Below, one piece after another: positions 28,747-42,059 of a DNA stretch of 59,642 bases; position 1 is the first letter of the stretch; every line of letters starts with the position of its first letter. A program made the position numbers and the translations under genes. Below the pieces are notes generated by a model. The model searched no databases. It had not been told where the DNA came from and saw only the letters and a list, made by a program, of their open reading frames with translations. Source of the DNA: a virus (Duplodnaviria; Caudoviricetes); the IMG/VR virus record IMGVR_UViG_3300037248_000128, positions 1 to 59,642 of that record; one strand, given 5' to 3'.

Positions 28747-30591
28747 TCAGGCCACGAGCAGCGTCGTCGAGGTCAGCGCCGTTCCCGCCAAGTGGCCCGT
28801 GTTCGCCGTCGTCACCGTGCCGTCGCCGTTGTGGTAGTAAGCGAGGCCAGGCGTTAGTCCTGTGAGGTTGGCGCAGACTTGGCCCGGCGGAACGATGGTC
28901 GCCGTACCGCTGGAACTTACGGCAGAGGCGGTGAGGCCGATGGGGCCTTGGCTCAGATTCGATACTGCGGAGATGATGCGCGTGCTTATCGTGTCGTCCA
29001 CGTTCCAAAGAACGGCAAGAACTGTCGTGGAACTAACAGCAAACACCCAGTATTGAATTACGTTATGGGCGATACCCCCCGAGACGACGCCGGCTGTAAC
29101 TTGGAAGACTGTTCCATCCGTGTCGTTGAAGATAAACGATCCCGCGCCAAGAACCGCCAAGGTCATTGGCGAGCGTCCAGCTCCCCCCAGTATGTTATTG
29201 AAGTTCGTCGTACTGCCGTGCGGACTCGTCGTGGGCAGCAACGAGCCCTGCGTGATGGTTGTGCCTGATACAGTGAAGATCGGCGGCGCGTTACCGGGTT
29301 CAATCTGAACCACGGCAAACGTCGTGGCGCTCAATGTGGATAAAGCGGGAGCGCCGATTGACTGGCCACCTTTTTGAAGGGTGACTACGCCGGCATCCAG
29401 CACGGCGCCTAACGTGACGGTCGTGCCAGATATGGACCCCGCCAAAAGGCCCGTGGTGGGCGGCTGCGGATCGCCTGATGTAAAAGCAAGCACGAAACTG
29501 GTCGTGCTTAACAGCACCATCGAGAGTTGCCCATTGACAGAAGCGCCGGGGCTGACGGTGGCTGGCGTGTTCAATGTTATCGTGGCGCCCGATACGCTGG
29601 CGATGACAGCGCCCACGACGGGGGATGCGTCATAGGAAATTAGCGCCTCGCTGGAGGAGATAGGCGCAACATTGACTGATAGTCCACCAGTGACGACGGT
29701 TACTGCCGCACCAAGCGTGATGGTTGTACCTGATACAGTTCCTGCAATAGCATAGGTGTTGGTGTCATTAGAGCCAGTGTAGACGATGATGAAGCTGGTG
29801 GCGCTCAGACTGGCAACGCCGATACAGTTGAAACCATTGGTATTTGTATTGAGGCCCTGTGCCGCATCAACAACCGCAGGCGTTCCGGCGGTGATTGTGC
29901 CGCCTGAGACGGAAGCGGCGACGGCCGTGAGGAATCCGCTGTTGGTCGGATCGTTGTAGGCGCAGACAAAAAGTGAAGCGGAGAGGGCGGCTGCGCTTGG
30001 AGAGCCAAAGGGTATATTTCCGGCGGGTCTCACATTGGCCATGCCGGTCGTCGTGTTCGGCGTTCCGTAGGTGATTGATGTGCCCGACACCGTTCCGACG
30101 ACAGCGCCTATGATCCCCGCGTTCGTGAAAAAGTTGGCCGCACCGTTGCCAGCGAACAGGACGAAGTGGGTAGCATCGAGCTGGAGGTAACTGATTCCTA
30201 CCGCGTCGTACCAAAGCAGGGAGCCAAACGGATTGACGACGCCCGCTACATTCGGAGCCGGCCCCCATGTCTGCACCGCATCTCCTGAGGAATTGACAGA
30301 GACAGAAGTTCCAGCGGCGAGGTTGGTTGCGGCGGTGAGGGTGATGGAGGGCGAGCCGCCGCTGATCGTCAGCGTCGCATCAGGCGTAGAGCCGCCGACC
30401 GTGCCGCCGGTGACAGTGATCTGCTCGACGCCATTGACGGTGTGCGTGCCGTCCGTGAGCGAGAGGTTGCCCAAGCCAAGCAGGCTCGTCGCGTTCGCGT
30501 TCAGGGCCGTCGTGTTGCCGGGCCGCGCAAAGGGGAAAAGGTCGGTTCCTAGCGGCGTAACCGTCGTAGCGGCTGAGATTTTAGTGTTCAC
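28747..30591 (-). CDS. Tail fibre / receptor-binding protein
   Basis: 614 aa, G/T/S-rich; repeated blade-like units (VSGTTITLG); GLTPGLAYY C-terminus; atypical codon use in the centre. Confidence 0.7.
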   Translation of the reverse strand: MNTKISAATTVTPLGTDLFPFARPGNTTALNANATSLLGLGNLSLTDGTHTVNGVEQITVTGGTVGGSTPDATLTISGGSPSITLTAATNLAAGTSVSVNSSGDAVQTWGPAPNVAGVVNPFGSLLWYDAVGISYLQLDATHFVLFAGNGAANFFTNAGIIGAVVGTVSGTSITYGTPNTTTGMANVRPAGNIPFGSPSAAALSASLFVCAYNDPTNSGFLTAVAASVSGGTITAGTPAVVDAAQGLNTNTNGFNCIGVASLSATSFIIVYTGSNDTNTYAIAGTVSGTTITLGAAVTVVTGGLSVNVAPISSSEALISYDASPVVGAVIASVSGATITLNTPATVSPGASVNGQLSMVLLSTTSFVLAFTSGDPQPPTTGLLAGSISGTTVTLGAVLDAGVVTLQKGGQSIGAPALSTLSATTFAVVQIEPGNAPPIFTVSGTTITQGSLLPTTSPHGSTTNFNNILGGAGRSPMTLAVLGAGSFIFNDTDGTVFQVTAGVVSGGIAHNVIQYWVFAVSSTTVLAVLWNVDDTISTRIISAVSNLSQGPIGLTASAVSSSGTATIVPPGQVCANLTGLTPGLAYYHNGDGTVTTANTGHLAGTALTSTTLLVA

Positions 30592-37779: not shown

Positions 37780-39226
37780 TGGGGGTCACCGCGCGGCCCA
37801 TCCCAGCAAGCGCCGTGGCGAAGTTGCCGAACGCTTGGTTCAACTGGTTGTCTTGGTTGATCTGCTCCTGCATCAATTGCACGTAGAGCTGGTCGCCCGC
37901 GTTCGTCTCTTGGACCCCTTGGGCGAACAGTTGCGTGGCGATCTGCGCTTGGGCGGCGACCTTACGCTCCTGCACCGCCTGCTGGTCCTGCGCTTCGGCG
38001 CTTGAGGCGGTCATTCCGCGCGAGGCGTATTCCGAGGCGATGGAAGCGTCGGCGCCCGCCGCCTGCGCGTTCAGCGCCTCTTGCTCCCCAGGGGGTAGCG
38101 TGCCGTTCTCGAGATAGCCGCGGAGCTGCGCGCCCTGTTGGCTGAGCGCACCCGCTTCTGAGCCCAAGATGCCCGAGTACGGCGTCTTTGGCTTGTTCAG
38201 CGCGTCCAGCGCCAAGCCGGCGAGCGGTAGGAACGGGGCGGCCTCTTTCAGGAACCCGCCAACGCCGCCTGTGGATGCAGCCCCAGCCGCCGGGGCGTTG
38301 AGCGTGATGCCCGGATCAAAAGCGCTTACTGGACCTGTCACGGTCGGCGCCGCCGTCGCACTCGGCACGCTAGCCGTGGTGTCGAACGGGACCGGGCCAG
38401 CAACGCTGGACAAATCAGCCGGACCGGCCGCGCCGACATCGCCGCCCGCGCCCACCGTCCCGCTGGTCAGCGACAGCGTGCTCGGCACGCCGACGTTCGT
38501 AGCGCCAGCCGCGCCCGTCCCGACATCGCCCGGAAGCTGCGCGCTTGCAGCGCTGGTCGGAGCAGTGATGTCGCTCGGCGAACTGAGCGCGACAGTCCCC
38601 GTGCCGCCGGTCAGCGTCGGGAAACTCGGCTGCGTCAGCGTCGCGTCGACCGTCGGCGCCGCGATAGCTGACGGCACGCCGCCAACATCGGCGCCCGTCG
38701 CAACGCTTGCCGGCGGCGGAGCAGATACGCTCGGCGACAGTCCGCCCGGAGCGGCAGAGGGACCGCCAGCGGGAGCAGCGCCTCCACCCCCGCTTGGTGT
38801 GGTGAAGCCTGTCACGCCGCCAGCGAGCGCGCCGAACGCAGCGCCTTCCAGCGGGTTCTGGTGCGTAAGCTCGGCACCGAGCGCACCGCCGGCCCCACCG
38901 GCCAGCACGTCGCCCGCCGTGGTCCCCAGGCCCGTCGCAGCGCCGATAGCCGGCCCGAAGCCGCCGATGGCCCCGCCAGTGACAGCGCCGCCCAGCGCGC
39001 CCTCCCAGAGCGGCTCGTGCGTCAGCGCAGCCTCGCCGGTCCCTAGCAGCGCGCCTGTGGCCGCGCCCTCAAGGCCGGTGCCGATGGCTGAAGCGACGCC
39101 AGCCGGCAGCGTCGCGCCGAACAGGGCCGCCGCGTCTGTGGCCGCAGTCGCGCCGAATGTAGCTACAGCCGTACCTGCGGCTTCAAAGCCAGCGATCAAA
39201 CTACCGATGATTGCACTAATTCCGAT
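37772..39226 (-). CDS. Internal virion/ejection (pilot-like) protein; start may be ATC at 39226 or TTG at 39199
   Basis: Gly/Ala-rich N-terminus, Gln-rich C-terminus; AGGAGG 5 nt before ATC. Confidence 0.7.
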   Translation of the reverse strand: MGISAIIGSLIAGFEAAGTAVATFGATAATDAAALFGATLPAGVASAIGTGLEGAATGALLGTGEAALTHEPLWEGALGGAVTGGAIGGFGPAIGAATGLGTTAGDVLAGGAGGALGAELTHQNPLEGAAFGALAGGVTGFTTPSGGGGAAPAGGPSAAPGGLSPSVSAPPPASVATGADVGGVPSAIAAPTVDATLTQPSFPTLTGGTGTVALSSPSDITAPTSAASAQLPGDVGTGAAGATNVGVPSTLSLTSGTVGAGGDVGAAGPADLSSVAGPVPFDTTASVPSATAAPTVTGPVSAFDPGITLNAPAAGAASTGGVGGFLKEAAPFLPLAGLALDALNKPKTPYSGILGSEAGALSQQGAQLRGYLENGTLPPGEQEALNAQAAGADASIASEYASRGMTASSAEAQDQQAVQERKVAAQAQIATQLFAQGVQETNAGDQLYVQLMQEQINQDNQLNQAFGNFATALAGMGRAVTPNA

Positions 39227-39288
39227 GGTCGCCTCCTGGTAGTTTCCGGGGCCAGCCGACTACATCGGAACGTCTCACAGCGCGGTCA

Positions 39289-39316
39289 GGCGGGCAAGAT
39301 AGCCATCCTGCCTGCC
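39289..39316 (-). terminator. Hairpin closing the minus-strand pentamer unit
   Basis: GGCGGGCAAGAT-AGCC-ATCCTGCCTGCC imperfect 12-bp inverted repeat; no U-tract. Confidence 0.5.
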
Positions 39317-39391
39317 TCGCCGTGCCGGGCTATTCTTCTGCGCGCCATGCCATCACGGGCTTCTCCATGCCATTCGAGGCCGCGCCTTGCC
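39312..39391 (-). ncRNA. Single GGY-NN pentamer unit (putative guide RNA)
   Basis: 16 in-register pentamers ggcaa ggcgc ggcct cgaat ggcat ggaga agccc gtgat ggcat ggcgc gcaga agaat agccc ggcac ggcga ggcag. Confidence 0.8.
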
Positions 39392-39395
39392 AAAC

Positions 39396-39572
39396 TCAGG
39401 GCGAAAGTAACCTCTCGCGAAGTATGTGCCGCGCAGCCTGTGGCCGCGTAGCGATTCCTCGATAGGCGTCTAGCGCCGCCAACTCTTCAGGACGCAGGCG
39501 AACTTCAACCACAGTCGCATGGACGGGCGGTCTGCCCGTCTTTTTGCCTGTGTTATCTGTTGACGCCTGCAT
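39396..39572 (-). CDS. Small RHH-like regulator of the cassette
   Basis: KKTGRPP...VVEVRLRPEELAALDAYR...TRPQAARHIL. Confidence 0.7.
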   Translation of the reverse strand: MQASTDNTGKKTGRPPVHATVVEVRLRPEELAALDAYRGIATRPQAARHILRERLLSP

Positions 39573-39602
39573 TAAGCCAATGATACAGGTGGAAACTGTC
39601 AA
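39560..39602. promoter_or_regulatory. Candidate promoters for the two arms of the cassette
   Basis: TTGACG on plus strand (39560) and TTGACA on minus strand (39602) in an AT-rich stretch. Confidence 0.4.
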
Positions 39603-39648
39603 AAGGCAAGCCTGATTGTCGGGCACAGGGCCATGACAGGAGAACGAA

Positions 39649-40380
39649 ATGACGAAAACTGACCGAGAGAGCCTTGCCGGCGCATTGTCGTCCAAGGCAA
39701 CCTTCAAGGGCTTCAGCGTTTGGCTGGTCGGCGATACGCCGGTCATCACTCACGCGTGGAGCGAAAAAGCGCGGCGCGAGATGCTGCAGAAGCAGGTCAA
39801 GGCGACCAAGGGCGGGAAAGAGGCCCGCGATCCCGAGGCCGATTTTGTGTCGAGTCTCTACGAGATGGGCGACGGTGCCTACGGCTTCCCGGCGATGGGC
39901 GTGAAGAACTGCATTCTCAGCTCGGCGCACAAGGACAAGGGCATCCCAAGGTCGGCGGTGATGGCCGGTCTGTGGATCGACGCCGACATGGTGCGCACTC
40001 GACCGGCGCTCGCCGGCGCGGTCTGCGACATGCCGCTGATCCGCATCTACGGCACCGATCCGGAGATGCGGGAGGACATGGTGAAAATCGGCTCTGGCCT
40101 GAACAAGATCGCCAATCTGAGCTACCGCGCGCAGTTCACCGTGTGGGCGATGAAGGTGACCGGCCGGTTCAACACCACGATCCTGACGCCTGAGGCGCTG
40201 GCGTTCCTCATCCAAGAAGCTGGACTCGCGTCTGGCCTCGGCGAGTGGCGCAACGAGCGCCGCGGCATGTTCGGCGCCTTCCACCTCGCCGACGTGGACG
40301 AAGAGGCCGCATGGGAAGCCTACGCCGACGGCAAGGGCGACCTTCCGGTTCCGGCGTCCTATCGGCAAGCGGCGGAGTAA
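39649..40380 (+). CDS. Stand-alone Cas7/RAMP-like protein (VIPR-type effector candidate)
   Basis: N-terminal beta strand + G.TP.I.H; YGFPAMGVKNCI (P...K helix); C-terminal Gly-rich loop AGLASGLGEWRNERRGMFGAF; AGGAG RBS. Confidence 0.78.
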   Translation: MTKTDRESLAGALSSKATFKGFSVWLVGDTPVITHAWSEKARREMLQKQVKATKGGKEARDPEADFVSSLYEMGDGAYGFPAMGVKNCILSSAHKDKGIPRSAVMAGLWIDADMVRTRPALAGAVCDMPLIRIYGTDPEMREDMVKIGSGLNKIANLSYRAQFTVWAMKVTGRFNTTILTPEALAFLIQEAGLASGLGEWRNERRGMFGAFHLADVDEEAAWEAYADGKGDLPVPASYRQAAE

Positions 40381-40386
40381 CCAACC

Positions 40387-40890
40387 ATGAACTACGTGTT
40401 CAAGGACGCACCCGTCACGATCTTGAACGCCAAGCGCGCCGATCCCAACCGGATCGGCGCTGCCTTGGCGAAGATCGCCGAAGACGGGCACGGGCGCCTG
40501 ACGCCGAACGCCGTCGTGGAGGCCGCCCGGAATCCGCGTTCGCCGTTGCACCGGCACTTCGAATGGGACGACGCAAAGGCGGCCGAAGCATACCGGCTCG
40601 ACCAAGCTCGCGAAATCATCCGAGTTGTCCGTATCGAGGGCAACGACAATGAAGAACCCGTCCGAGCTTTCCTGTCCGTCAAGGACGCCGCTGGCGTCAG
40701 CTATCGAACGGCCGAAGACGTGCAGGGAAGCCTCGAACTTCAGCTTGCCGTCCTAAGGCAGGCTGAAGCCGATCTCGAGGCGTGGACGAAGCGCTACCGC
40801 GAACTCAGCGAAATCTGCGACGACGTGCTCAAGGCGCGCGACAAGATCAGGACGCGGCGCGAAGCGGCGGAAAGTCGTCTTCACGCCTAG
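40387..40890 (+). CDS. Partner protein of the RAMP-like gene
   Basis: LTPNAVVEAARNPRSPLHRHFEWDDAKAAEAYRLDQAREII; sits between the RAMP gene and the array. Confidence 0.75.
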   Translation: MNYVFKDAPVTILNAKRADPNRIGAALAKIAEDGHGRLTPNAVVEAARNPRSPLHRHFEWDDAKAAEAYRLDQAREIIRVVRIEGNDNEEPVRAFLSVKDAAGVSYRTAEDVQGSLELQLAVLRQAEADLEAWTKRYRELSEICDDVLKARDKIRTRREAAESRLHA

Positions 40891-40897
40891 ACGATTT

Positions 40898-41600
40898 GGC
40901 TGGGACCGGCGGCGCTTTGTCTGAGTGTCGGGCCGGGGCAGGGAAAAGCAGGCGCGGCCACGAAATGTGACGCAAGTCGGCGCGTGTCGCGAACGGGCAT
41001 GGCCGGATGGGCTGGGCTTGGTGGAGCCAGTCAGCGGAGGGAATGGCAGGTCTTTGCTCGGCAGGCGGGGCATCGAAGGTGATGGCGCATTGCGGAGCGG
41101 GAAGGTCATGTTTTGAGCGTCTCGTGTCGGCTCGTGATGGCAAGGCAGGCAGTGCTCGGGGGAGCGGGGCAGAGATCGTTGATGCAGCGCTCGGCCCAGT
41201 TAGGTGAGGCAGGCTCGGAACGGCCAGTCCCAGCAAGTGACGGAACGGCTCGGGCAGGTCGGCTTGGCAGGCGTGGACGGGCTTTGTCCGGCAGAGGCGA
41301 GCTAGTCGCGTAACGCCATGTCTCAGCTTGGCTCGGCAGGAATGGATATGCGAGGCCCGTTGTCGCCCGTCCCGGTAGGGACCGTGATGGCATCTCGCGG
41401 AACGGCGAGGCTGGATAGGAACGGCTGTGCCCGTAGCGGATTGGCTCGGTTGGGCAGGCTGGGAACGGTCGTGAGGGGCGAGCGTCGGCAATGCCCGGAC
41501 GGGAGGTGTTAGGCAAGGCTGGCGGGGTTGGGAAAGGCAAGTAGTCGATAGGACAGTCTCGTCTTCGCATCGCCCGGGCAGTCGTGGCCCAGTAGGGCTG
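40898..41600 (+). ncRNA. Array of about 11 GGY-NN pentamer units (putative guide RNAs)
   Basis: 5-nt periodicity; junction pentamers (mostly GGCAG/GGCTG) + 4-mer at 40947, 41001, 41060, 41144, 41208, 41266, 41335, 41409, 41453, 41517, 41596; no credible ORF. Confidence 0.85.
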
Positions 41601-41603
41601 GCC

Positions 41604-42059
41604 CTATGCGAACCGGCGCGCGTAAAGCGAACCGGTTATCGAGTAGCCCCGCGCTTGGAGCAAGTATTCGAGCGCGGGGTGACCGATACGACTCTCGATC
41701 ACGATGACGCACGGCTCGTCTTTCGACAAGTCCGCCTCCATGAAGTCGAACAGACCGCCCGCCGCGCCGACGTTTCGGTGCTCAGGCGCCACCCAGATCG
41801 TATCGTCGCGGGCGAACTTATGGTTATAGTGGGCGTGCCTCGGCACAACCGTCATGATGCAGTAGCCGATCAATCGACCGTTGAGGCGTGCGGTGTAGGC
41901 GAACAGCAGTCCAGCGCGGTTCGCTCTCTCGTAAAATCCGAAGTCAGGGTCAAGCGGCGTCTCGACAAGCCGCAACCCAAGTTCCGCCCAGTGCACGGGC
42001 AGCAGCGGACGCAACTCGTCGATCACGTCGCTATAGTTTTCGCGGCGGTATTCGATCAT
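41604..42059 (-). CDS. GNAT-family acetyltransferase
   Basis: GRLIGY...IWVAPEHRNVGAAGGLF...RGY. Confidence 0.8.
   Translation of the reverse strand: MIEYRRENYSDVIDELRPLLPVHWAELGLRLVETPLDPDFGFYERANRAGLLFAYTARLNGRLIGYCIMTVVPRHAHYNHKFARDDTIWVAPEHRNVGAAGGLFDFMEADLSKDEPCVIVIESRIGHPALEYLLQARGYSITGSLYARRFA

What the first reader, a model, noticed from the sequence alone, without database searches (positions are those of the whole stretch)
40952..41005. One unit targets homologs of the RAMP-like gene itself
The NNs gc ca aa ga aa gg gt gc cg at read in sense as A-H-K-D-K-G-V-A-R-I/M. The cassette's own effector gene has gcg cac aag gac aag ggc atc cca agg tcg (AHKDKGIPRS) at 39925-39954. That gives six consecutive exact dinucleotides followed by mismatches, including Arg written AGG instead of CGN. 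Inference: a system-versus-system arms race (silencing rival copies) or weak autoregulation. This guide is sense while the others are antisense to their decoded ORFs, which favours dsDNA over mRNA as the target.
Basis: partly seen in the sequence, partly recalled or inferred. Interest (0 to 1): 0.9.

Follow-up and report, generated by a model that had tools for sequence, protein, structure and literature searches.

The report
Phage VIPR guide against rivals' vipr
One guide RNA in this soil phage's VIPR array (a CRISPR-related, RNA-guided DNA silencer described in 2026) spells a conserved motif of the vipr gene as related phages carry it, while the phage's own copy matches less well; this kind of rival-disarming guide is already in print.

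Summary
Window 40951-41005 is one unit of a staggered GGY/NN pentamer array. Its ten variable dinucleotides are GC CA AA GA AA GG GT GC CG AT. They match the phage's own 243-aa gene at 39925-39954 at the first six dinucleotides (12/12) and then at 3 of 8 bases, 15/20 in all.

The system is a VIPR system, described in bioRxiv 10.64898/2026.04.26.720920. A profile of the protein family hits PDB 36pp 'SUSP1 Vipr protein' at E=7.7e-15. A vap gene follows vipr, and the array shifts phase by one base at each unit junction.

In all 23 distinct IMG/VR contigs carrying a close vipr homologue, the homologous AHKDKG site scores 15-19 of 20, in sense. It is the guide's best match in each of the 22 loci scanned whole. 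22 of 23 reach the printed 80% threshold, and two V-A-R alleles reach 19/20. None of 500 shuffled guides reached 18.

The own allele (I-P-R with AGG) scores 75%, ties for lowest, and mismatches at the guide's 3' end.

The best reading is a guide that silences rivals' vipr-vap-array operon and spares self. vrRNAs against other VIPR systems are already published, and this scan has noted many VIPR guides on other DNA. It is a new member of a known kind. Expression and silencing are untested.

The parts
39649..40380 (+). vipr gene (243 aa), a RAMP/Cas7-like Vipr protein
   Evidence: Matches phrog_4652 at E=1.8e-21. No Pfam, NCBIfam or PADLOC hit. The sole PDB sequence hit is 36pp_D 'SUSP1 Vipr protein': E=9.3e-4 with the single sequence and E=7.7e-15 over profile positions 13-197 with the 28-sequence family profile. 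AF2 model has pLDDT 80. Top Foldseek hits are Csm3/Cas7 subunits of type III and VII complexes, E about 7e-4, TM 0.38-0.46.
39925..39954 (+). The phage's own copy of the targeted site (AHKDKGIPRS). It matches the guide at 15/20, with all mismatches in the last four codons (ATC CCA AGG TCG).
   Evidence: AGG makes up 13 of 209 Arg codons in seven genes of this phage and 1 of 15 in vipr.
40387..40890 (+). vap (vipr-accessory protein), 167 aa
   Evidence: Matches phrog_15946 at E=1.1e-23. A homologue lies just downstream of vipr in 57 of the 61 loci checked. AF2 pLDDT is 93.6, with an N-terminal alpha/beta domain and a long C-terminal helix at residues 116-166. Resemblance to winged-helix DNA-binding domains is weak only: Foldseek E 0.08-0.8.
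40898..41600 (+). Staggered vrRNA array of about 11 units of GGY/NN pentamers. Each junction overlaps by 1 nt (phase shifts by -1) and reads GGC.(a/t)g|G.
   Evidence: Phase walk 3,1,0,4,3,2,1,0,4,3,2,1. Unit layout. It fits the legend of Fig. S18, 'Staggered vrRNA arrays ... 1 nt overlapping positions', in 10.64898/2026.04.26.720920. Most of the 17 close relatives' loci scanned carry a GGY-conforming tract downstream of vipr-vap on the same strand.
40951..41005 (+). The unit in question: one vrRNA with 10 informative NNs (GC CA AA GA AA GG GT GC CG AT) plus the junction pentamer GGC.cg.
   Evidence: The target footprint in 23 relatives starts exactly at the GGC.gc pentamer. Mean match is 0.04 of 2 for the pentamer before it and 1.91 for that pentamer. 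It ends at NN9-10 (NN10 0.70, junction pentamer 0.22).
39312..39401 (-). Minus-strand GGY-conforming pentamer tract upstream of vipr; a candidate upstream vrRNA, not studied here.
Evidence: Conformity scan.

Best explanation
Window 40951-41005 encodes one guide RNA (vrRNA) of a VIPR system built from vipr (39649-40380), vap (40387-40890) and a staggered array (40898-41600).

By the published 1-nt-skip code, the guide's ten NN dinucleotides specify codon positions 1-2 of the segment A-H-K-D-K-G-V-A-R-(I/M) on the sense strand of vipr genes in related phages. A Vipr filament loaded with this vrRNA would pair with the template strand of a rival phage's vipr, 276 nt into the gene. It would form the gapped R-loop/triplex and block transcription of the rest of vipr and of the co-directional vap and array. 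That would disarm the rival's VIPR during co-infection, or in a resident prophage.

The phage's own allele (I-P-R with AGG, then S) loses 5 of the 8 bases at the guide's 3' end. It falls to 75%, below the 80% match that the published work uses for natural targets, so it is spared.

Shown here: Vipr homology, the array grammar, the sequence match to rivals and the lower match to self. Inferred: transcription and processing of the unit, binding, silencing, and that the own allele's differences were selected as escape.
For: 1. Family membership. The profile hits SUSP1 Vipr at E=7.7e-15. The fold is Cas7/Csm3-like. A vap homologue is conserved next to vipr in 57 of 61 loci. The array shows GGY/NN statistics and 1-nt staggered junctions, as in Fig. 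S18 of 10.64898/2026.04.26.720920 (legend read).

2. Match to rivals. In all 22 whole loci of close homologues (52-82% identity to the window's Vipr) the guide's best hit anywhere in the roughly 5-7-kb locus, on either strand, is the homologous vipr site, in sense and in codon register. A 23rd contig, L043, holds a partial vipr and matches the same site.
- Scores: 19/20 in 2, 18 in 8, 17 in 6, 16 in 6 and 15 in 1.
- So 22 of 23 are at or above 80%, and 16 of 23 at or above 85%.
- L010, L011 and L012 have identical sites and may be one phage.

3. Null. Over the 17 loci, 500 shuffled guides gave a mean maximum of 14.6, an overall maximum of 17, and 0 of 500 at 18 or more.

4. Specificity within the array. 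Of the 10 units, only this one exceeds its null on the 22 loci: 19/20 against a null maximum of 16 in 60 shuffles.

5. Exact search. The 18-base pattern for the first nine NNs has 3 exact matches in 2.9 million IMG/VR contigs. Two are in vipr homologues at this site; the third is unrelated.

6. Footprint. The complementarity starts exactly at the unit's first pentamer and ends at NN9-10.

7. Self versus rival. The own allele scores 15/20 and ties for lowest of 24 alleles. Its mismatches cluster at the guide's 3' end, where SUSP1 VIPR starts unwinding (10.64898/2026.04.26.720927, section 8). Arg is CGN in 19 of 23 relatives and AGG here, a codon used for 13 of 209 Arg in seven genes.

8. Precedent in print. 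[quoted passage not shown] Solo vrRNAs target rivals' vipr, and vrRNA-targeting guides have self-match scores lower than their match to other phages' vrRNAs (10.64898/2026.10.15.759431, section 8). Neither paper found self hits at or above 80%.
Against: - No 20/20 vipr target was found. The tenth NN (at = I/M) fits no allele among the 120 closest proteins or the 23 contigs. The three exact 20/20 hits elsewhere are not in vipr.
- The closest sampled relative, L001 (82% identity), also has I-P-R with AGG but lacks this guide. Fourteen of the 120 closest proteins are I-P-R. The own allele therefore need not have been shaped by this guide.
- A/P switching at this column (12 changes for 15 minority tips) is no more homoplastic than many other columns on the same tree.
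- Only 4 of this unit's 11 scaffolds are exact GGY. That is typical here (4-7 per unit), but in SUSP1 perturbing GGY abolished silencing.
- No other carrier of this guide was found. 23 pentamer-spaced hits in IMG/VR are all non-vrRNA, with conformity 0.21-0.30 and no vipr nearby.
- Staggered arrays were not confirmed by sRNA-seq in the preprint. [quoted passage not shown]
Confidence: 0.75

Rival explanations
1. Autoregulation. The guide binds the phage's own vipr at 39925-39954 through the 12 matched bases of its 5' half and gives weak negative feedback on vipr-vap-array expression.
For: There is one 6-NN exact run, in codon register, inside the phage's own vipr. It is the only such run for any unit in the genome, and 0 of 60 shuffles place one in vipr.
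Against: - The run is explained by homology to the better-matched rival alleles.
- Total identity is 75%, which is at background: 36.8% of shuffled guides reach it somewhere in the genome.
- That is below the 80% threshold under which neither preprint found self hits.
- The mismatches lie at the 3' end, where SUSP1 VIPR begins R-loop formation.
Confidence: 0.08
2. An inert or relic unit. The unit once targeted, or was copied from, a vipr allele but is no longer processed or loaded. Possible causes are its degenerate scaffolds and the lack of a tail. The match would then be history, not function.
For: - Only 4 of 11 scaffolds are exact GGY.
- The tenth NN fits no known allele.
- The guide is unique to this phage in the samples searched.
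- No expression data could be obtained.
Against: - Its scaffold conformity (0.73) is the same as in the other nine units (0.69-0.78).
- The first nine NNs are intact against a motif that is nearly invariant across the clade.
- The footprint coincides with the unit boundaries.
- NN positions turn over quickly: only 1 of 10 units is shared with any of 22 relatives. An unselected match would therefore decay fast.
Confidence: 0.12
3. Chance resemblance between a G-rich periodic sequence and a coding segment.
For: The self match alone is at background. Three exact 20/20 matches elsewhere in very large collections are unrelated to vipr.
Against: - 0 of 500 shuffled guides reach 18/20 on the 17 loci, while 8 of those 17 loci do (10 of all 23 contigs).
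- The best hit falls on the same homologous codon-phased site in all 22 whole loci.
- 2 of the 3 exact 18-base matches in IMG/VR are in vipr.
Confidence: 0.02

Closest known systems
VIPR systems (Vipr + vap + vrRNA), experimentally the type II systems of Escherichia phage SUSP1 and a Pseudomonas fulva prophage (bioRxiv 10.64898/2026.04.26.720920, Results and several Methods sections read; 10.64898/2026.04.26.720927, sections 6 and 8 read)
   Same: - Minimal phage-borne locus of vipr and vap with flanking non-coding arrays.
- GGY/NN pentamers.
- 1-nt-skip code with the skipped base on the codon wobble position.
- Target on dsDNA, sense strand here.
- No self match at or above 80%.
- Vipr is homologous by profile (E=7.7e-15 to PDB 36pp).
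   Different: - Only distant in sequence: the single-sequence hit is E=9.3e-4, and tblastn against 50,697 phage records finds only Mycobacterium and Gordonia phages at 30-36% identity, not SUSP1.
- The array is staggered, with 1-nt overlaps, and has no conserved pseudoknot tail.
- Internal scaffolds are more degenerate.
- Nothing about this type's expression, processing or silencing has been shown.
- I could not assign it to one of the seven types, because the supplements are closed.
vrRNAs that target other VIPR systems: the P. fulva clade (10.64898/2026.04.26.720920, Results) and SUSP1-family solo vrRNAs against vipr and against rivals' vrRNAs (10.64898/2026.10.15.759431, section 8 read)
   Same: The guide is aimed at a competitor's VIPR, and its match to self is lower than to rivals, which spares the carrier.
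   Different: - The carrier here is VIPR-positive, and the guide sits in its main array.
- The printed vipr-targeting solo guides are on vipr-null phages and hit early or late codons of vipr. This one hits a mid-gene conserved motif (codons 93-102).
- Self-sparing rests on allele differences in the carrier's own vipr (Pro and AGG), not on loss of the gene.
SUSP1 vrRNA4 against the satellite recombinase (10.64898/2026.10.15.759431, abstract and section 19 passages)
   Same: The guide's periodicity matches the codon periodicity of a conserved segment, so synonymous third-position change cannot give escape.
   Different: The target there is a satellite's recombinase and was shown at work. Here the target is the rivals' effector gene and is predicted only.
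Cas7/Csm3 backbone subunits of class 1 CRISPR effectors
   Same: RAMP fold (Foldseek E about 7e-4). According to the preprints, the protein oligomerises along a guide RNA with periodic base flipping.
   Different: There are no CRISPR repeats or spacers and no other cas genes. The period is 5 nt with 2 informative bases, and the outcome is DNA silencing rather than cleavage or signalling.

Membership tests
VIPR system | Vipr protein: a RAMP homologue related to described Vipr proteins | tested here: met
   The family profile hits PDB 36pp_D 'SUSP1 Vipr protein' at E=7.7e-15, nearly full length. The single sequence gives E=9.3e-4, and it is the only PDB hit. Top Foldseek hits are Csm3/Cas7.
VIPR system | Tandem GGY/NN (YNNGG) pentamers next to vipr, with a conserved scaffold and hypervariable NN | tested here: met
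   Position 1 is G in 75%, position 2 is G in 79%, position 3 is C or T in 70%, and positions 4-5 are near uniform. Conformity is 0.69-0.78 against 0.42 expected. NNs differ between relatives: 9 of 10 units have no counterpart in 22 loci.
VIPR system | Adjacent vipr-accessory (vap) gene | tested here: met
   A 167-aa gene starts 6 nt after vipr. A homologue lies downstream of vipr in 57 of 61 loci. A DNA-binding fold is only weakly suggested.
VIPR system | Natural target matching at least 80% of NN positions under the 1-nt-skip rule, with the skip on the wobble base | tested here: met
   For this unit, 22 of 23 relatives' vipr sites score 80% or more, with a best of 19/20, in codon register. 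The other nine units found no target above null in the 22 loci.
VIPR system | vrRNA is transcribed, processed and bound by Vipr; the complex silences a dsDNA target | not testable with these tools
   No expression or binding data could be obtained with these tools. The simple promoter/terminator scan was uninformative.
Staggered vrRNA array (Fig. S18 of 10.64898/2026.04.26.720920) | Successive vrRNAs overlap by 1 nt, so the end of one marks the start of the next | tested here: met
   The pentamer phase drops by one at each of about 10 junctions. The target footprint of this unit starts at the junction. Only the figure legend could be read.
Anti-VIPR vrRNA (guide against a rival's vipr) | Identity to rivals' vipr of at least 0.8, and lower identity to the carrier's own locus | tested here: met
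   Rivals score 16-19/20 in 22 of 23 contigs. Self scores 15/20, tied for lowest of 24.
Anti-VIPR vrRNA (guide against a rival's vipr) | The own allele's differences are escape changes selected by the guide | tested here: inconclusive
   AGG is a rare codon (13 of 209 Arg) and CGN is used in 19 of 23 relatives. But L001 shares I-P-R with AGG without carrying the guide, and the A/P column is not unusually homoplastic.

The most novel reading that the evidence does not exclude
The phage keeps a broad 'family-killer' guide against the nearly invariant AHKDKG motif of its own effector family. It protects itself by recoding its own vipr at the guide's 3' (initiating) end, with Ala to Pro and CGN to AGG. 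Self/non-self discrimination in a VIPR-positive phage would then be written into the effector gene itself. The sharp footprint also gives the first natural-target support for the unit boundaries of staggered arrays, which the preprint predicted but did not confirm by sRNA-seq.
Probability: 0.3. Interest if true: 0.5.

Novelty: new member of a known kind. Interest (0 to 1): 0.35.

Why it matters
This is a clean natural example, in a soil phage far from the E. coli and Pseudomonas models, of a VIPR guide aimed at competitors' VIPR effector gene with the carrier's own allele just under the match threshold.

It shows that the 1-nt-skip code and the 80% rule carry over to a staggered, tail-less array type that has not been tested at the bench. 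It also gives a ready pair of natural target sites, 19/20 and 15/20, that differ only at the guide's 3' end. These could be used to measure mismatch tolerance and the direction of target engagement.

It does not change the picture already in print.

Tried and rejected
- Databases: Pfam, NCBIfam and PADLOC gave nothing for vipr or vap. Rfam gave only sub-threshold hits. TRF and the generic repeat finder did not resolve the array.
- blastn of the locus against 50,697 phage records found no match.
- The exact 20-base pattern gave 0 hits in viral contigs, 2 in metagenome contigs and 1 in genome contigs. None is in vipr, and roughly one hit per 10^12 positions is expected by chance.
- A pentamer-spaced search for the same guide in other phages gave 23 IMG/VR hits. 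All had scaffold conformity 0.21-0.30 and no vipr, so they were rejected. No equivalent guide was found in loci L001-L037.
- Reciprocal targeting: a 9-NN sliding scan of the arrays of 17 relatives against all vipr+vap regions found no guide at 16/18 or better against the window's genes.
- Test for recurrent A/P switching as a sign of an arms race: 12 changes for 15 minority tips, which is not an outlier among columns (an earlier fasttree run is).
- One attempt to find natural targets of another unit (41065-41148, nine central NNs) gave 0 exact matches in viral contigs. The claim that the other guides are antisense to real genes therefore stays untested.
- Expression: no RNA holder was listed. 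Two soil-metagenome DNA runs hold the stretch; X2's contigs are identical where they cover it. This says nothing about expression.
- Supplements of the VIPR preprints (data S3, figs S15-S18, type tables) are closed. They may already list this clade, its type, or anti-vipr targets.

Full report
WHAT IS THERE. The window is a complete 59,642-bp contig, and the 'genome' file is the window itself. GC content is 63.8%. Between two minus-strand blocks of genes lies a plus-strand cassette with three parts: a 243-aa gene (39649-40380), a 167-aa gene (40387-40890), and about 700 nt of G-rich non-coding DNA (40898-41600).

The non-coding DNA has a 5-nt period whose phase drops by one at each of about ten junctions. 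Parsed that way it forms about 11 units of GGY-like triplets alternating with free dinucleotides. Each unit ends in GGC.(a/t)g, and its last G is the first G of the next unit. Over the ten units, position 1 is G in 75%, position 2 is G in 79% and position 3 is C or T in 70%. Positions 4-5 are near uniform. Scaffold conformity is 0.69-0.78 per unit, against 0.42 expected from composition.

THE OBSERVATION. The unit at 40951-41005 reads GGC.gc GGC.ca CGA.aa TGT.ga CGC.aa GTC.gg CGC.gt GTC.gc GAA.cg GGC.at GGC.cg. So is the gene segment 39925-39954 (gcg cac aag gac aag ggc atc cca agg tcg, AHKDKGIPRS). There are six exact dinucleotides and then 3 of 8 bases, 15/20 in all.

Taken alone this is weak. 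36.8% of 500 shuffled guides reach 15/20 somewhere in the genome, and a second 15/20 site exists at 30447 on the minus strand. A six-dinucleotide exact run somewhere in the genome occurs in 32% of 60 shuffles of the whole array. None of those 60 shuffles places one in this gene, however, and the observed run is the only one for any unit.

WHAT THE SYSTEM IS. VIPR systems consist of a RAMP-like Vipr protein, an accessory vap gene and vrRNAs made of GGY/NN pentamers. The NNs pair with double-stranded DNA targets while skipping every third target base, usually the codon wobble. Either strand can be targeted, and no PAM is needed. Natural targets are called at 80% or more NN match, and no self hits reach that level (10.64898/2026.04.26.720920, Results and Methods sections 20, 26, 27).

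The legend of Fig. S18 of that preprint describes staggered arrays in which vrRNAs derive from 1-nt overlapping positions. That is the grammar seen here. The preprint confirmed other architectures by sRNA-seq, but not this one.

Membership was tested directly:
- The 243-aa protein has no Pfam, NCBIfam or PADLOC family and belongs to phrog_4652.
- Its only PDB sequence hit is 36pp 'SUSP1 Vipr protein', at E=9.3e-4.
- A 28-sequence profile of the family hits that chain at E=7.7e-15 over almost its whole length.
- The AF2 model (pLDDT 80) is most similar to Csm3/Cas7 subunits of type III and VII complexes.
- The 167-aa gene has a homologue immediately downstream of vipr in 57 of 61 loci. It folds confidently (pLDDT 93.6) into an N-terminal domain plus a long helix. 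Its resemblance to winged-helix DNA binders is weak only.
- Most of the 17 close relatives' loci scanned carry a conforming pentamer tract downstream of vipr-vap on the same strand.

The protein has 1,760 database homologues at E<=1e-5. The best 120, which include the window's own protein, are 75-100% identical to it. At the site in question, AHKDKG is almost invariant. The next three residues are I-A-R in 84, I-P-R in 14 (including this phage), L-A-R in 13, V-A-R in 8 and I-S-R in 1.

DNA came from IMG/VR. There are 23 distinct contigs with a close homologue (52-82% identity to the window's Vipr). In all 22 whole loci, the guide's best hit anywhere in the locus, on either strand, is the homologous vipr site, in sense and in codon register. 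The 23rd contig, L043, carries a partial vipr and matches at the same site.

The scores are 19/20 in 2 contigs (L013 and L043, both AHKDKGVAR with all nine first NNs exact), 18 in 8, 17 in 6, 16 in 6 and 15 in 1. L010, L011 and L012 share an identical site and may not be independent.

Further controls agree:
- Over the 17 loci, shuffled guides never reached 18 (0 of 500; mean maximum 14.6).
- Only this one of the ten units beats its null on these loci.
- Of the three exact matches to the nine-NN pattern in all of IMG/VR, two are these vipr genes.
- More distant Vipr clades (48% identity or less) have a different motif at the site and score 5-9/20.
- The per-position profile shows complementarity switching on exactly at the unit's first pentamer and off after NN9-10. 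This also supports the staggered unit boundaries.

SELF VERSUS RIVAL. The own allele scores 15/20 and ties with L015 for lowest of 24. All its mismatches are in the last four NNs: at for gt, cc for gc, ag for cg, and tc for at. In SUSP1 VIPR, protomers and R-loop resolve from the 3' end towards the 5' end of the vrRNA (10.64898/2026.04.26.720927, section 8). By analogy, the own site is mismatched where engagement would begin. This analogy is an inference, because the array here has no pseudoknot tail.

Arg at the site is CGN in 19 of 23 relatives. It is AGG here, a codon used for 13 of 209 Arg in seven genes.

I could not show that the differences were selected by the guide. The closest sampled relative, L001, has the same I-P-R/AGG allele but no such guide. 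On a tree of the 120 proteins, with the motif columns left out, the A/P column changes 12 times for 15 minority tips. That is no more than many other columns.

MECHANISM. The most likely reading (0.75) is a guide that directs the Vipr filament to the template strand of rivals' vipr, 276 nt into the gene. There it would block transcription of the remainder of vipr and of the co-directional vap and array, disarming a competitor's VIPR. The match and the self/rival asymmetry are shown. Transcription, processing, binding and silencing are inferred from the type II work.

The alternatives are less likely. Autoregulation (0.08) has only the 12-base run in its favour, and homology to the real target explains that run. 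An inert relic (0.12) cannot be excluded without RNA data, but NN turnover is fast, since only 1 of 10 units is shared with any relative, so an unselected match would decay. The null tests exclude chance (0.02).

COMPARISON WITH WHAT IS KNOWN. The idea is in print. [quoted passage not shown] For SUSP1-family phages, solo vrRNAs target rivals' vipr, and vrRNA-targeting guides, some on VIPR-positive phages, have self-match scores below their rival-match scores (10.64898/2026.10.15.759431, section 8). A fourth preprint recovers VIPR arrays at scale (10.64898/2026.10.21.760802, passages only). Two literature searches found no other VIPR papers.

This scan has itself noted VIPR guides many times on other DNA: 329 notes in at least 211 genomes, including one orphan guide against vipr.

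What is particular to this case:
- It is a distant, soil-phage Vipr clade with a staggered, tail-less array.
- The carrier is VIPR-positive.
- The target is a mid-gene, nearly invariant motif.
- Self-sparing rests on allele differences in the carrier's own effector gene.

I file it as a new member of a known kind, with interest 0.35.

LIMITS.
Allele frequencies at the DNA level therefore rest on 23 viral contigs.
- Supplements of the preprints are closed, so I cannot say which of the seven VIPR types this is, or whether this clade's targets are already tabulated.
- No expression or binding data could be obtained with these tools.

Noticed in passing
L001:4586-4640 (+), array of the closest relative: A unit with NNs at tg tt ag gc gc ct gc tc aa ag matches the vipr segment EDMVKVGAGLNK of L007 at 19/22 (20/26 with flanks). 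It scores 17/26 on L001's own vipr. The best hit falls on that same vipr segment in 8 of the 23 targets scanned (22 loci plus the window's own vipr). Here the skipped base is codon position 1, not the wobble. It may be a second, independent anti-vipr guide in this family.
   Followed up: partly
window 41065-41148 and L014:3777: This 16-NN unit is nearly identical (30/32 NN bases at pentamer spacing) to a unit in L014, a relative at 61% Vipr identity. The other nine units have no counterpart in 22 relatives. Guides turn over fast, but this one is kept or was exchanged.
   Followed up: no
window 39610-39651 (+): Sub-threshold Rfam hit to Mu-gpT-DE RNA (25.1 bits against a gathering score of 49, E=0.011), overlapping the ribosome-binding region and start of vipr. 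Probably chance.
   Followed up: no
window 39600-41620 in runs X1 and X2: A second soil-metagenome run from another study holds the locus with no differences where its contigs cover it. Both runs also hold short contigs that match only conserved vipr stretches (40010-40044, 40234-40290) with 3-7 differences. Diverged vipr homologues may therefore share the habitat.
   Followed up: no
Mycobacterium and Gordonia phage records (e.g. hits H1-H32): Thirty-two actinophage records encode proteins 30-36% identical to this Vipr, all annotated 'hypothetical protein'. These well-studied phage clusters probably carry VIPR-like systems.
   Followed up: no
window 39521-39541 (+) and 39609-39580 (-): The only terminator-like hairpin in 39100-41800 lies just upstream of vipr on the plus strand. 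The only sigma-70-like promoter match is on the minus strand, pointing toward the minus-strand pentamer tract at 39312-39401. No plus-strand promoter for vipr-vap-array was recognised by the simple scan.
   Followed up: no
window 41414-41457: The shortest unit (8 informative NNs) has a best self match of 13/16 (81%). That equals its best match in relatives and lies within its shuffle null (maximum 14), so for short units the 80% rule has no discriminating power.
   Followed up: no
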